Below are positions 11,101 through 30,895 of a stretch of DNA of 50,943 nt, piece after piece. A model generated the notes under the pieces. It saw only the letters and a program-made list of their open reading frames with translations. It was not told the origin of the DNA and made no database searches. The stretch covers positions 1-50,943 of the forward strand of contig JAUCBJ010004597.1 of assembly GCA_032718475.1 (NCBI GenBank), given 5' to 3'. How positions within the stretch are numbered: position 1 is the first letter of the stretch; each line of letters starts with the position of its first letter. A program made the position numbers and the translations under genes. The stretch is from Nemertoderma westbladi. Lineage: Eukaryota; Animalia; Xenacoelomorpha.

Positions 11101-12066
11101 CGCCGTTCTACGTAACTGGCGTAGACTGCTTCCGACCATTTACAGTTATAGAGTGACGATCCAACATCAAATGTTGGGGAGCCATCTTTACATGTCTACT
11201 GTCAAGGGCGATTTACCTGGACCTTGTAGTGAACCTCACGCAGCACGCATTCATCAACACCCTGCGTCAGTTCGTAGCGAATAATGGTTCATGTACTCGG
11301 ACAATGGAACTAACTTTGTGGGAGGAGAAAGGGAACTAAGAGAGGCTATTGAAGGATGGTTCACTAACGAAACTGCGTCACACATCTGGAAGGAACACCA
11401 CATCCAATGGCACTTCCAGACACCCTTAGCACCCCATACAAGCGGGGTATGGGAGAAACTCATTGATTTAGTGAAACGATCCATGTGGATTGCGTTATGG
11501 GATACCAGGGTCACTCATTGCACACCACATTCTGCGAAATCACGGCTACCCTAAACAACTGGCCAATCATTCCCATCCATGACGACCCAACCGATCTGGA
11601 GCCCCTCACACCCAGACATCTCCTTGGTAGACCTAAGTCCAACATACTTCCAGAGGCCATCTTCCCGGATCCCAATGACATTGCGAAACACACAAACTGG
11701 AAGAAAGCCCAAGCGCTGGCGGCGCATTGGTGGAGAATTTGGGCCCAGGAGTACCTTATAACCCTTCGAATGAGGAGGAAATGGAATGATACGTACCGGA
11801 ATGTCGCAGTTGGGGACATGGTACTCGTCAAGGATGACCTTAAAGACTGCGTCCACTGGCCTGTGGCGCGTGTCATGGAAATAACCCCAAGCAAAGATGG
11901 ACTTGCGAGAACGGTGACGATACGAATGGCAAAGGGCCACTACCAATGCCCTATCCAGAGGCTTTGCCTTCTCGAAGGCAATGACAGTGGTGACTCCATG
12001 AGAGGTGATAAGTTCCCTACTCCGGATCCTGCTGCGGACATTGGTGACACTGATAAACCCGTTTAA
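8200..12066 (+). pseudogene. Decayed BEL/Pao pol (protease C-terminal region, RT, RNase H, integrase, C-terminal domain); 5' part absent
   Basis: Motifs in order: LLIGLD..TILGW; RVVNDAAA..GESLN..LIRFRE..CDIKAMFHQV; FYVDY (YxDD mutated); [89 protein letters not shown]. Many stops and frameshifts. Confidence 0.95.
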
Positions 12067-12335
12067 CACATCCCATCCTGTTGACAAACTCTTTAAATGT
12101 GATTTACCGACAATGATTATGGACCCCCCTTAAACCAACTGTAACCACGCATGGTATTTGTGTTTCCTCGTGTGTTATGTGGAGTCCAGCGTCACCCTGC
12201 AGATGTTTCGACTGACGCTGGGTAGTTTATGTTTTGTTCACCCTGATTTTGGTCATCAGGACCAACTACCTTGGTTTATTGGAAATAGGAAAGTTTCGAA
12301 GTGTAAGTCATTGTGTCTATTATGTTTGTCCTGTG

Positions 12336-12698
12336 TTGTCCGTTACGTGTGCAGTTTGGGGCGTAGGCGGTGTAATGAGTCCAGCTGTAGATCCCAGACT
12401 GCCGCATAACACCCCCTCTATCGCGTTATTCTGGTGGGTCCATGGTACATTCCACATGACTTCGTCGATAGAGACTTTATGTTCCTCAGCCACGTTATTC
12501 TGGTGGGTCCCTGGTGCATTCCACGTGACTTCGTCGGCTGAGCTTTATGTTTCTGGGAGTGTTATTCTGGTGGGTCCCTGGTGCATTCCATGTGACTTCA
12601 CTTCCAGCGTTCTATTCATTGTCCGTTACGTGTGCAGTTTGGGGCGTAGGCGGTGTATCGAATCCAGCTGTAGATCCCAGACTGCCGCGTAACACCCC
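12336..12698 (+). repeat. ~80 bp direct repeat (12336-12416, 12619-12698) enclosing three ~68 bp tandem units
   Basis: TTGTCCGTTACGTGTGCAGTTTGGGGCGTAGGCGGTGTA...CCAGCTGTAGATCCCAGACTGCCGC occurs twice. GTTATTCTGGTGGGTCCmTGGTrCATTCCA occurs at ~12425, ~12494 and ~12561. Confidence 0.9.
12358..12370 (+). promoter_or_regulatory. Putative polypurine tract of the 8200-12066 BEL element
   Basis: GGGGCGTAGGCGG immediately before TGTAA, ~300 bp after the pol stop. Confidence 0.55.
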
Positions 12699-13305
12699 TT
12701 CCACAACGAAAATTTCCCAAGAAGATGGCTAAAAGTAGTACGAAATGATGGAAAGAAACAGATAACTCAACTATAAACTGAATGATGACTTGTACTATTA
12801 TGATGATGAGAATGTGATGATGTGCATCCCTGGTGTCTTGCGCTTATAACCCAATGATGATAGCCGGGGGGCTATAACCCCAATGAAATGGTGAAATAAA
12901 TGATGAAATGTGAAATAAATGATGAAATGTGAAATAAATAATGAAATGTGGAATAAATGATGAAATGTTAAATAAATGATGAAATGTGAAATAAATGATG
13001 AAATGTGAAAGAAATAATGAAATGTGAAATGAATAAACTATAGAAATAAAAAAGACAAAAAAAGGTATAAAATGTAGAATGGAAAAAGAATTTAAAAAAG
13101 AAGCGGACATGCGGACAAAAACTGGTTGGATAATAATGAATAGCTTTAGTAACTGTAAATACTGAATTTAGTACCAATAAGATGATAGATGCCTATATAT
13201 CAATAATATTACTTACATTAAAAATAACTATTCTGCAGTCGCTATAGAATCAGACTTTCTGGATTTATAATTAACTGAATTAATTTGTAACGGACGTAAT
13301 TTACA
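12371..13305 (+). repeat. Putative LTR A (~935 bp, TGTAA...TTACA) between BEL pol and exonuclease ORF A
   Basis: Starts TGTAA after the PPT and ends TTACA (inverted termini). It is followed by ATA and then TGG (13309). It contains internal tandem repeats and a TATA-like CCTATATAT at ~13192. No second copy in the window, so LTR status is inferred. Confidence 0.55.
12880..13035 (+). repeat. 19 bp minisatellite (ATGATGAAATGTGAAATAA)n
   Basis: About 7-8 slightly diverged units are directly visible. Confidence 0.9.
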
Positions 13306-13307
13306 AT

Positions 13308-28600: not shown

Positions 28601-29649
28601 GGATTTTAGAGAGGAGGGTCAATATGACCCCCCCCCCCCCCCGGTATTTGTACAACATTTTATAGCCCGGTACTAATAGGGCTAAAGGCTCTCCTATGGC
28701 TCAGTGTTGATCCTAAAAGTAGAAATGCTGTCGGCTCCTTGCCAATGACCACCATTACGAACAGGTTCACCAACCTGATCATTATCCAATCCTCCTGCAA
28801 GATGTATTCTGGTCCAACTTGATTACCCCCTTTCGGAATTGATATATCTCTTCCCTCCTCGGCCTGAGTGAGTTTTGAGTGAGACCATCAGTTCCACTCC
28901 ATTTTCTCCTCGGAACTTCTTCCACTCCATTGGTTTATGAGACACGAGTCCCATCAGTTGTCCCATGGCTACGGCAACATATTGTCCCATATTCTCCACC
29001 AATCCCAGCCCGTCTGGTTTCGTCATAGCCATGTAGATTACCTGCATGTCCAGAAGGCTCGGGGTGTTTGGTCCAATGATCCGTTCCGCGTCGTCACGGA
29101 TTGCCGATCTGATCTTGACCATCAACTTGGTCCTAACTAACTACTGGACGGCTTCCAGCAGGTTTAGTTTAGGCCCGTCCTTCTTTCTATAGGTCCCCAA
29201 GTCGAACAGAAAAATATCTCCCTTCAGCACTGCCATATGCAGCAATATGGTTCTACCCGACCCCATTGACTCCCTCCTTGTCTCCTCATGATCCTCTACG
29301 GTCCCTCATCGTCCAAGACTATGCAGCATTCCCTCTCTATTGACTCCATAAACTTCTTCCATTCCTTCCTCGGTAAATTTCTCTTATGAGTCAGGATCCC
29401 AAAGGAGGCTTCTTTCTCTTTCACGACATAGTGGAAATGCTCGTTGATCGCAGTGTCTAACAATGGCGTCCCGTAGATCCCCACGTGCAGGCTCCGATAG
29501 TGATCCTGCAGTCCGTGTGCTTTCTGGCTCTTATGGAGTCGCTGGTAGTACTTCCTTGACTTATTCTCCGGCTCCCTCCTGGTGAAATCGACTAACAAGT
29601 CCTTCTCGCTCTTTTCCAACATTCTCTTCTAGAGTCATTTCTCCGCCAT
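25640..29649 (-). pseudogene. Decayed ORF B, divergent homologue of ORF A (exonuclease, charged linker, three CCHC-type knuckles, shared C-terminal domain), split by a piggyBac MITE
   Basis: EWKKFMESIERECCIVLDDEG (A: FWDTFRRSVYKSRCLIYDNEG); LLHMAVLKGDIFLFDL; LVRTKLMVKIRSAIRDDAERI; LLDMQ; EYILQED. FGRQAIIDGCDYCG*LIHQRKNCP (A: FGQEMQLDVCSSCG). KYCRDFRH..PELHYRCDKWKFHGH (A: PYCATPGH..PTLYNVCTTCSFRGH). FEHWADVGLMTKQR..KIPFTY (A: FETYANVHVKTRA..TLPFHY). 3' boundary approximate. Confidence 0.75.
27127..28681 (+). mobile_element. piggyBac-like MITE, copy 2
   Basis: TTAA at 27123-27126, CCCTATTAAACCCGG ... CCGGTACTAATAGGG, right TSD mutated to CTAA (28682-28685). Colinear with copy 1. Removal restores the ORF B reading ...HRRAFKVPLEDLAD... 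Confidence 0.9.
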
Positions 29650-29671
29650 CCCTATCTTTCTCTCACCAAAC

Positions 29672-30557
29672 TGATGGTGGCGCCTTGGAAAGGCTCAGTA
29701 GGGCAAGAGACAACTAATTTTATTCCAATCAGTATTATCAGAGATGGCCTACACTCCTTTTCGCCTTATTCTACAATTATTTTCAAGTGTCAATTTTCCC
29801 TACATTCGCAATTTTGTCCATCTAGAATTTTATTTTTCTAGCTCCTACGTTTTCTTCATTTTGGTGTAATTATTTATTTCTACATTTTCGTTACTCATTA
29901 AGTAACGCTACATCAATTCCATCAATTACTTTGTAAGTAATTCTTCACTACTTATTGTTTAGCTTACAGAAAAGACTAGCTACAATTACTTCTATTGTTA
30001 TACTACCTTTCCACCAGACAGCTTCCTGGGTCAGTAGCAATACTGTAAGTCTGCACCCTATGTTAAGCGTTATAGTAGTCTAGCTTATGCAGCCTACACC
30101 AGCTAGCCTATCACGCCTATATATCCATTAAACCCCTCACGTGGCGCCCTCAGTGCCCACAATAGTACCTATTATCTACTAGTATTGCTCCCATTGACCC
30201 AGCATCCCATAGTACACTCTATCTATGGTGGTATGTTAGTACCCTTCTAATCCTAAGTATGGTCCCATTGACCCGGCATTCCATAGTACACTCTATCTAT
30301 GGGGTAGTACTTATGTACTCATCTAATCCTAAACATGGTATTTATGTACCCTTCTATTCTTAGTTTTCCCATAGTACACTCTATCTATGGGTAGTACGTA
30401 TGTACTCTTCTGGCTTATGTAATTATGTACATTAGTACAGGTGTACTCATCAGACGTACCTTGTATGTACATTAGTATGTATGTACTCATCTAAACCTAG
30501 TTATATTTTTATTTATTTATTTTAATTCATTTTTGTGGGTAGGGGGTATCGCCCTCA
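29672..30557 (-). repeat. Putative LTR B (~886 bp, TGA...TCA) between a BEL integrase C-terminus and exonuclease ORF B
   Basis: Minus strand: PPT-like GAGGGGGGTGGGAA, then TGAGGGCG; internal tandem repeats (CCCATAGTACACTCTATCTATGG on the + strand, ~30200-30400); AATAAA ~45-50 bp before the end ...CGCCACCATCA; then GTT, TGG (29668), and an ATG at 29649. No second copy in the window. Confidence 0.55.
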
Positions 30558-30591
30558 TTCCCACCCCCCTCAGTGTAATTTATTGGACGAT

Positions 30592-30895
30592 TCAACTAAT
30601 GTAGGGTGATTCTTCCAGCAGGCAACACTTTCCTACTGCCCTATTGTAAGTTTTCCTGTCTTTCGCTCCAATCTTCACGCCAATCCTGAATTTCCTGACT
30701 TTCCTGACTCTCCTGATCCTGATCTGACATTCCCATCTACTCCGGGATAGCACTCGATGACTCTGGCGAGTCTCCACTGATTGTTGATGACCGTGACATC
30801 CATCACTATTATTAAGTCGCCTTTCTTCAGCTCTCGTTTATTATTCTTCCAATTACTCCTCTTATGCAACGTCGGTAGTGATTTGGTTATAATTT
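30592..30895 (-). pseudogene. C-terminal fragment of a BEL/Pao integrase
   Basis: LPTLHKRSNWKNNKRELKKGDLIIVMD..NNQWRLARVIECYPGVDGNVR..KTYNRAVGKCCLLEE. Confidence 0.85.

What the first reader, a model, noticed from the sequence alone, without database searches (positions are those of the whole stretch)
12066..30895. Candidate new retroelement architecture: BEL pol - PPT - LTR - PBS - exonuclease/zinc-knuckle ORF, seen twice in divergent families
Seen: on the + strand, BEL pol ends at 12066, followed by a PPT-like tract (12358-12370), a TGTAA...TTACA segment (12371-13305), 3 nt, TGG (13309) and ORF A. On the - strand, a BEL integrase ends at 30592, followed by a PPT-like tract, a TGA...TCA segment (30557-29672), 3 nt, TGG (29668) and ORF B starting 19 bp later. 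The two segments are similar in length (~0.9 kb) and both have tandem repeats in the 5' half and an A-rich 3' half. I see no obvious nucleotide identity between them, while the ORFs are homologous as protein. Established: a BEL element normally ends at the LTR after the PPT, and the sequence after a PBS leads to gag. DEDDy exonuclease accessory ORFs are described in bdelloid Gypsy-type and Penelope/Terminon elements and in Dada DNA transposons; I do not know of them in BEL/Pao. Inference: this may be a BEL lineage with an internal or shared LTR, either a three-LTR/bipartite element (gag-pol unit plus exonuclease unit) or an exonuclease ORF0 ahead of gag in tandem arrays.
Basis: partly seen in the sequence, partly recalled or inferred. 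Interest (0 to 1): 0.9.

Follow-up and report, generated by a model that had tools for sequence, protein, structure and literature searches.

The report
BEL retrotransposons with nuclease third gene

Summary
The motifs are at the stated places, but the internal-LTR reading is weak. Both loci read BEL integrase end, ~1 kb non-coding spacer, a ~2.6 kb broken ORF, then more non-coding DNA. ORFs A and B are homologous (z 8.9). In locus B the junction that behaves like a PPT/LTR start lies downstream of the ORF (24810-24800): 7, 10 and 8 contigs in three runs diverge there. The spacer resembles nothing in that LTR candidate. In A the 'PBS' TGG lies inside the ORF's own ATG-G start, other copies lack the 'CA' end, and 'PPT+TG' is part of a tandem unit. 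Such loose motifs occur at 1.4 and 4.4 per kb. The exonuclease call rests on ordered DEDDy motifs (2 of 4 tests beat all 300 shuffles); no library search confirmed it. Best reading: BEL/Pao families with an accessory ORF3 (DEDDy-like exonuclease, linker, three zinc knuckles) in the env position, as known for rotifer Gypsy-type elements. I found no BEL case in print (10 searches). No 5' end and no host genome were available, so LTR pairs and TSDs are untested.

The parts
8126..12066 (+). Element A: broken BEL/Pao pol (end of protease region, RT, RNase H, integrase); 5' part with gag and 5' LTR absent from the window
   Evidence: Pfam Peptidase_A17, Integrase_H2C2, DUF5641; tblastn of BEL relatives P0124-P0127 at 25-41%
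12067..13307 (+).
   Evidence: multi-copy, with length-variable tandem units
12336..12701 (+). Duplicated 83-nt unit (12336-12418 = 12619-12701, 94%) that contains the G-rich tract and the TG; 69-nt repeats between
   Evidence: joints going back from 12438 and 12507 to 12355 in other copies
13308..15924 (+). ORF A (broken by stops and frameshifts): N-terminal part, DEDDy-like exonuclease (motifs at 13628-13642, 13979-14008, 14068-14082, 14314-14364), Pro/Ser/Thr-rich linker, three Cys/His modules (15265-15456), C-terminal region
15925..17400 (+). Element A 3' non-coding region with a 209-nt tandem repeat; candidate PPT at about 17391-17400
   Evidence: no open frame over 102 codons; multi-copy throughout; the PPT is inferred from sequence only
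17401..17450 (+). Candidate start of element A's 3' LTR (TG at 17401), cut off by a (CTGA)452 microsatellite at 17451
   Evidence: untested
30592..30895 (-). Element B: last ~300 nt of a BEL integrase (broken); the rest is absent from the window
   Evidence: DUF5641 E 6.6e-13
29650..30591 (-).
25500..29649 (-). ORF B (broken; end between about 25790 and 25500): exonuclease motifs at 29316-29302, 29116-29090, 29056-29042, 28809-28786; Cys/His modules 26190-26020
27123..28688 (.). Non-autonomous DNA transposon with TTAA-type ends inserted in ORF B (piggyBac-like label recalled, not tested)
   Evidence: 89-90% to copies at 6191-7760 and 41007-41856
24811..25499 (-). Element B 3' non-coding region with blocks shared by many related copies (about 25369-25292, 25121-25000, 24900-24803)
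   Evidence: depth peaks and joints in three runs
24801..24810 (-). PPT of element B, directly before TG at 24800
   Evidence: loose ends at 24803 in 7, 10 and 8 contigs
24291..24800 (-). Candidate 3' LTR of element B, TG...CA, 510 nt; the 3' end is inferred
   Evidence: it ends in the same CAACA letters as the control element's LTR; depth falls to single copy by 23835
33756..41009 (+). Control: ordinary BEL element C with paired 342-nt LTRs (99.1%), PBS at 34097, gag with three knuckles, pol, PPT, no third ORF

Best explanation
Both loci are broken copies of BEL/Pao LTR retrotransposons in which a ~1 kb non-coding spacer and then an extra ~870-codon gene follow the integrase; the gene likely encodes a DEDDy-type 3'-5' exonuclease joined to three zinc knuckles, and it likely lies inside the element, ahead of the true PPT and 3' LTR. 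Shown: gene order, homology of the two ORFs, knuckles, multi-copy state, a junction after ORF B where relatives diverge at PPT-TG. Inferred: whole layout LTR-PBS-gag-pol-spacer-ORF3-3'UTR-PPT-LTR (12 kb or more); ORF3 made from its own message (spliced, as is typical of ORF3s per PMC5408684, or from a promoter in the spacer). Inferred function: the knuckles bind RNA and the nuclease trims RNA 3' ends; my first choice is that it degrades or binds host silencing small RNAs (about 40%), then 3'-end processing of the element's own RNA or cDNA (35%), then a catalytically dead RNA binder (25%), since the last acidic residue reads E, not D, in both copies.
For: Locus B: 7, 10 and 8 contigs (three runs, two samples) match up to 24803 and then run on with the rest of a purine tract, a TG and letters unlike the window's in the two runs with a clear majority. 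Joints and an 85-88% identical 1.7-kb contig tie ORF B's 3' part to the blocks before that junction. No gag, protease or pol follows either ORF. Neither spacer resembles B's downstream LTR candidate, A's 3' region or C's LTR (7 segments all against all: 2 hits, E 0.13 and 0.75). Locus A: TGG lies in the ATG-G start; one contig keeps the start and first codons but has no CA before it, and one contig each in two other runs shows indels that remove the CA; PPT+TG is inside a tandem unit; depth just upstream of 12371 (20-22 thousand) exceeds that of the last two thirds of the segment (6-11 thousand) in three runs. ORF spans match once the insertion is removed (2617 and ~2584 nt). Ordered-motif test: A z 4.6 (0 of 300 shuffles, above all 336 control tiles) with 30 standalone bacterial PF01612 exonucleases; B z 4.0 (0 of 300) with 94 RNase D; ExoI and ExoII blocks fall on the same homologous columns in 4 of 4 tests. 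Precedent: DEDDy ORF3 in rotifer Juno/Vesta (PMC5408684).
Against: No library hit for the exonuclease: Pfam, PHROGs, NCBIfam, PDB, homologue searches (one search's one hit is a bacterial Ig-repeat protein). The cross tests are weak: B z 1.8 (13 of 300), A z 0.4 (97 of 300), and B's RNase D score is below 3 of 336 control tiles; a third profile (33 short RNase D-like proteins) gave nothing; I chose the blocks knowing the motifs. No 5' LTR, gag or TSD is in the window for A or B. A's downstream PPT/LTR is a guess. Spacers hold 8 and 5 AATAAA, as LTRs may. Only 24 of 1414 and 18 of 568 loose-end rows were shown; contig depth is no copy number; several joints have sides under 30 letters; one run may be the window's source.
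Confidence: 0.7

Rival explanations
1. The spacer is an old internal LTR. An ancestral element captured the nuclease unit behind its 3' LTR; the old LTR, no longer copied from the terminal one, drifted and now serves as poly(A) site for gag-pol and promoter for ORF3, and the old PPT as a second plus-strand start.
For: B's purine tract (13 of 14) begins 21 nt after the pol stop and is followed by TG; both spacers are 0.9 kb, inside the 0.2-1.2 kb LTR range (PMC8742986), carry several AATAAA and TATA-like words, and show the same motif order.
Against: No similarity to B's terminal LTR candidate, while known tandem elements have LTRs 85-99% alike (PMC11899658); in A the CA is not kept, TGG is the start codon and the tract is repeated; motifs this loose are common; control C has 800 nt between pol end and PPT, so the position is not fixed in this genome.
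Confidence: 0.13
2. Chance adjacency: the ORF units are separate non-autonomous LTR elements or tandem neighbours that happen to lie behind BEL integrase ends in a transposon-dense region.
For: The window is a nest of insertions; B keeps only 300 nt of pol; depth along A is very uneven, so many copies hold only parts.
Against: Same order, strand and spacing in two families whose integrase ends are only 36% identical; cover is continuous in 30 of 30 bins in three runs, and diverged contigs cross 12708 and the spacer-ORF junction; no 5' LTR matching the 3' one precedes ORF B.
Confidence: 0.07
3. The layout is as in the best reading, but the ORF is not a nuclease: it is a knuckle-bearing RNA-binding protein, perhaps built from a duplicated gag nucleocapsid, with an unrelated N-terminal domain.
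For: All library searches blank; three Cys/His modules spaced like those of BEL gag, and a zebrafish BEL gag knuckle region hits 15349-15465 weakly (E 0.34).
Against: DxE, KI-x-S-x-I-x-x-D, [FL]-[IL]-D-x-Q and Y-x3-E motifs in order in both ORFs; ORF A gives the top tile of 684 with the standalone-exonuclease profile and 2 of 500 shuffles reach its score; no capsid (DUF1759) domain.
Confidence: 0.1

Closest known systems
DEDDy exonuclease ORF3 of bdelloid rotifer LTR retrotransposons Juno and Vesta; also Athena/Terminon elements (PMC5408684, abstract, sections 3.2-3.5 and passages read; PMC6431247, passages)
   Same: A separate ORF downstream of pol and inside the element, with RNase D/WRN-like exonuclease motifs and one acidic residue changed
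   Different: Host element here is BEL/Pao; motif reads D-E-D-E, not DEED; ORF is ~870 codons with linker and three knuckles; ~1 kb spacer; kinship with the rotifer ORFs not tested (sequences not available to the tools)
Belpaoviridae / Semotivirus with a third gene: Tas, Cer7, Cer13, Atlas (PMC8742986 whole text; PMC9094657 and PMC554778 passages)
   Same: BEL pol followed by extra coding sequence before the PPT and 3' LTR
   Different: Those third genes are env-like; no env domain was detected here; ICTV gives 4.2-10 kb, whereas A spans 9.3 kb without gag or LTRs (Daphnia BEL reach 12.5 kb, PMC2996953 table). I recall, unverified, that a nematode BEL element may carry an RNase D-like domain; Malik 2000 and Ganko 2001 were not held
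Tandem LTR retrotransposons and TRIM arrays sharing an internal LTR (PMC11899658, passages)
   Different: There the internal LTR is 85-99% like the outer ones and both internal regions are copies; here the spacer matches nothing and the second unit is not gag-pol
Dada DNA transposons of Laccaria and Ectocarpus (PMC3706591, passages)
   Same: Transposon-borne DEDDy exonuclease
   Different: DNA transposon; the domain is inserted in the transposase and keeps DEDD

Membership tests
BEL/Pao (Belpaoviridae) | Pol order PR-RT-RNase H-IN with Pao-type RNase H (Peptidase_A17) and DUF5641 end | tested here: met
   A; B: only the DUF5641 end is present
BEL/Pao (Belpaoviridae) | RT motif YVDD/YVDN | tested here: inconclusive
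   A reads YVDY at about 9426 in a broken copy; B has no RT
BEL/Pao (Belpaoviridae) | gag with triple Cys-His box ahead of pol | not testable with these tools
   5' parts of A and B are not in the window and no genome is held; met only for control C
BEL/Pao (Belpaoviridae) | Paired terminal LTRs, TSD, PBS matching a host tRNA | not testable with these tools
   No 5' end, no host tRNA in the window
BEL/Pao (Belpaoviridae) | PPT directly before the 3' LTR | tested here: met
   B: 24810-24801/24800; A: candidate only
Internal/shared LTR (three-LTR or tandem element) | Internal segment is a copy of the terminal LTR | tested here: not met
   B spacer against B downstream scores 23, shuffle mean 25; no hit
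Internal/shared LTR (three-LTR or tandem element) | TG...CA ends kept among copies | tested here: not met
   A: CA at 13304-13305 absent in three contigs shown; TG start inside a tandem unit; B not tested
Internal/shared LTR (three-LTR or tandem element) | Many different flanks at both segment ends | tested here: inconclusive
   None at 12371 or 13305 among 24 of 1414 loose-end rows shown
Internal/shared LTR (three-LTR or tandem element) | PBS followed by gag | tested here: not met
   No DUF1759 or protease in or after ORFs A and B; A's TGG is within the start codon
DEDDy 3'-5' exonucleases (PF01612-like) | ExoI DxE and ExoII D in order | tested here: met
   Same columns in 4 of 4 chain tests; significant in 2 of 4
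DEDDy 3'-5' exonucleases (PF01612-like) | ExoIII Y-x3-D | tested here: not met
   Reads Y-x3-E in both ORFs
DEDDy 3'-5' exonucleases (PF01612-like) | Profile match above a library threshold, or RNase H-like fold | tested here: inconclusive
   No Pfam/PDB hit on the pieces; hhalign P 0.026-0.048; model pLDDT 29
Rrp6/RNase D-type (exonuclease + HRDC) | HRDC domain after the exonuclease | tested here: inconclusive
   No match with a profile of 41 bacterial RNase D post-exonuclease regions; a weak test
Juno/Vesta DEDDy ORF3 | DEED motif in a bdelloid non-BEL LTR element | tested here: not met
   D-E-D-E in a BEL element

The most novel reading that the evidence does not exclude
A BEL/Pao lineage with a two-part genome: a decayed internal LTR and its old PPT split a gag-pol unit from a captured exonuclease-zinc-knuckle unit, giving the nuclease its own promoter and the long element a second plus-strand start, with the nuclease acting against host small-RNA silencing.
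Probability: 0.12. Interest if true: 0.8.

Novelty: new variant of a known kind. Interest (0 to 1): 0.5.

Why it matters
The third genes reported for BEL/Pao elements are env-like. A nuclease ORF3 kept in two BEL families that have lost all DNA similarity would extend the DEDDy accessory gene from rotifer Gypsy-type and Penelope-like elements to a third retroelement group and supports the idea of a shared pool of such ORFs. It also poses a testable question: do retrotransposons carry a nuclease against small-RNA defence, or to finish their own RNA or cDNA ends? It is not a new replication design unless the internal LTR proves real.

Tried and rejected
No host genome is held, so copy counts, TSDs and a pol tree could not be made. 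Homologue searches for ORF A: none in 5167 candidates; one chance hit among 1.84 billion representatives; none in metagenome contigs for ORF A or for A's integrase end, viral contigs (82) or plasmids (67, 68). The ESM Atlas gave no result. The single-sequence fold was useless (pLDDT 29), so no fold search was run. No RNA holder listed: no statement on expression. Idea that the G-rich tracts are arms of conserved hairpins: z -0.7 to -1.1, rejected; only the stretch before B's downstream PPT folds a little better than shuffles (z -2.0, 6 of 200). Hammerhead-like words in A's 209-nt repeat: no Rfam match, fold z -0.9 and +1.0, rejected. Rfam on B: 7 matches, all far below gathering scores. LTR end near 12708: one contig with 9 loose letters at 12714, but a diverged contig runs through 12561-12973. 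Whether A and B are sister lineages: their integrase ends score 85 with each other, A-C 80, B-C 35, both best with P0124: not resolved. Literature: 10 searches found no BEL/Pao element with an exonuclease ORF; most subscription papers, Repbase and GyDB are not covered, and no supplements were read (the BEL sequence files of PMC3118150 could bear on this).

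
Full report
Setting. The window is a transposon-dense, gene-free-looking stretch. No host genome is held. Three public runs from two samples hold the sequence as short contigs; one may be the window's source.

Check of the observation. Element A has a broken BEL pol from about 8126 to the stop at 12066 (Peptidase_A17, Integrase_H2C2, DUF5641), with BEL relatives at 33-38% over the integrase. Locus B has only the last ~300 nt of a BEL integrase (DUF5641 E 6.6e-13), stop at 30592. They are loose motifs: 138 PPT-like+TG sites and 433 CA-N0-3-TGG sites in the window. ORFs A (13308-15924) and B (29649 to about 25500, split by a DNA transposon at 27123-28688) are homologous in the knuckle region (z 8.9, 0 of 300 shuffles) and weakly at DxE (z 3.7, 1 of 300), and span 2617 and about 2584 nt. 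An ordinary BEL element, C (33756-41009), with paired 99.1% LTRs, PBS, gag, pol and PPT serves as control.

Is the spacer an LTR? An LTR needs a partner, fixed ends and a PBS leading to gag. (i) No partner: seven candidate segments compared all against all gave two hits, E 0.13 and 0.75, neither between a spacer and an LTR candidate. (ii) Ends in A: the tract and TG are duplicated in the window (12336-12418 = 12619-12701, 94%), and contigs in two runs jump back from 12438 to 12355, so the unit is a variable tandem repeat. One contig keeps the ATG and first codons of ORF A without a CA before them, and one contig each in two other runs has indels that remove it. (iii) A's 'PBS' TGG is letters 2-4 of the ATGG start at 13308. 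(iv) Depth shows no step at 12371: 20-22 thousand just upstream against 6-11 thousand in 12630-13273; depth is no copy number, and only 24 of 1414 loose-end rows were shown, none at 12371 or 13305. (v) No capsid, protease or pol follows either ORF. For B the internal tract is 13 of 14 purines, 21 nt after the stop; I could not lay that spacer, so this is the open point.

Where the element ends. Downstream of ORF B a second purine tract (24810-24801) precedes TG at 24800. Laying 466, 369 and 401 contigs on 23600-27120 shows loose ends at 24803 in 7, 10 and 8 contigs; in the two runs with a clear majority they continue with purines, TG and letters unlike the window's (18 of 568 rows shown). Relatives thus share the block before the tract (depth 23-42 thousand against 22-58 in the single-copy flank) and part ways at the TG, which is how a PPT/LTR border behaves. 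Joints in all three runs and an 85-88% identical 1.7-kb contig link ORF B's 3' part to these blocks; several joints have short sides. A 510-nt TG...CA segment (24800-24291) is the LTR candidate; its far end is inferred. For A the multi-copy region runs on to at least 17440, and a G tract plus TG at 17397-17402 is a candidate border, cut by a microsatellite at 17451; this is untested.

What the ORF is. Library searches were blank, and the fold failed. I fetched DEDDy exonucleases with the tools and tested the broken ORFs read with X at breaks. With 30 standalone bacterial PF01612 proteins, ORF A gave the best of 684 six-frame tiles (E 5.8), 2 of 500 shuffles reached its score, B 28 of 500, hhalign P 0.026. 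An ordered five-block test gave A z 4.6 (0 of 300; above all 336 tiles) and B z 1.8 (13 of 300); with 94 RNase D sequences A z 0.4 (97 of 300) and B z 4.0 (0 of 300; below 3 of 336 tiles). A third profile gave nothing. ExoI and ExoII fell on the same columns each time; ExoIII reads Y-x3-E in both. Blocks were chosen with the motifs in mind. I put the exonuclease identity at about 85%. After a Pro/Ser/Thr-rich linker come three Cys/His modules, CX2CX4HX4-5C in the clearest cases, spaced like those of BEL gag. No HRDC was detected.

Mechanism. Shown: order, homology, knuckles, multi-copy state, downstream border in B. Inferred: one element of 12 kb or more, replicated in the usual way from a PBS behind the 5' LTR and the PPT before the 3' LTR, with ORF3 in the env position. 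ORF3s are typically separate units expressed from spliced messages (PMC5408684, section 3.5); both spacers end in pyrimidine-AG words that could be acceptors (untested). The protein would bind RNA by its knuckles and trim 3' ends: against silencing small RNAs (40%), on the element's own RNA or cDNA (35%), or not at all (25%). These odds are judgement, not measurement.

Comparison. Works like the DEDDy ORF3 of rotifer Juno and Vesta, but is not a member: BEL host, D-E-D-E rather than DEED, knuckles. The ICTV profile lists only gag, pol and env for Belpaoviridae (PMC8742986, whole text). Tandem elements with shared LTRs keep them 85-99% alike (PMC11899658, passages), which is not met. Papers seen as passages only: PMC6338049, PMC11662393, PMC3118150, PMC9094657, PMC5718144, PMC6431247, PMC3706591, PMC2996953, PMC3985635, PMC554778. 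Ten searches found no BEL exonuclease ORF; a nematode precedent that I recall could not be checked. Two unchecked notes of this scan report exonuclease-knuckle ORF3s in LTR elements of other genomes; they are leads, not support.

Verdict. A real, multi-copy feature: BEL/Pao with a probable exonuclease-knuckle ORF3, a new variant of a known kind (0.7). Internal LTR 0.13, not a nuclease 0.10, chance 0.07. Interest 0.5.

Noticed in passing
window 13522-13556 and 16649-17024 (+): A 27-32 nt word of the 209-nt tandem repeat in A's 3' region recurs inside the 5' part of ORF A (96% and 91%), and looser forms at about 16450 and 16545; possibly a repeated RNA signal.
   Followed up: partly
window ~13952 (+) and ~29143 (-): ORFs A and B both carry a TAG stop after Gln at the same aligned column, just before ExoII; coincidence or a shared feature, unexplained.
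   Followed up: no
window 24803-24900 and 25292-25369 (-): Short blocks before B's PPT are shared by very many related sequences (depth 23-42 thousand and 1.6-3.9 thousand); the first holds a hairpin (z -2.0); no Rfam family.
   Followed up: partly
window 16828 to 11219 (+): A joint in all three runs at single-copy depth goes back from A's 3' region into the integrase: one rearranged or nested copy elsewhere.
   Followed up: no
window 11664-12629 and 15850-17137 (+): These non-coding or terminal parts of A have far more contig depth than the middle of ORF A, as if many deleted derivatives keep them.
   Followed up: no
window 40628-40669 (+): Control element C has a short duplication of its PPT and first LTR letters just before the 3' LTR, and about 800 nt of AT-rich sequence between pol and PPT.
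   Followed up: no
window 17451-19258: A (CTGA)452 microsatellite, 99% pure.
   Followed up: no
window 6191-7760, 27123-28688, 41007-41856, 33580-33756: Copies of one non-autonomous DNA transposon with TTAA-type ends and internal 163-nt repeats; element C is inserted into one of them.
   Followed up: partly
window 3691-4055 and 7763-7873 (-); 31200-33580 and 41870-43370 (+): Further broken BEL gag/pol pieces split by other insertions.
   Followed up: no
window 20330-22383 (-), 44985-47249 (-), 47683-48636 (+): LINE-type reverse transcriptase remains (RVT_1).
   Followed up: no
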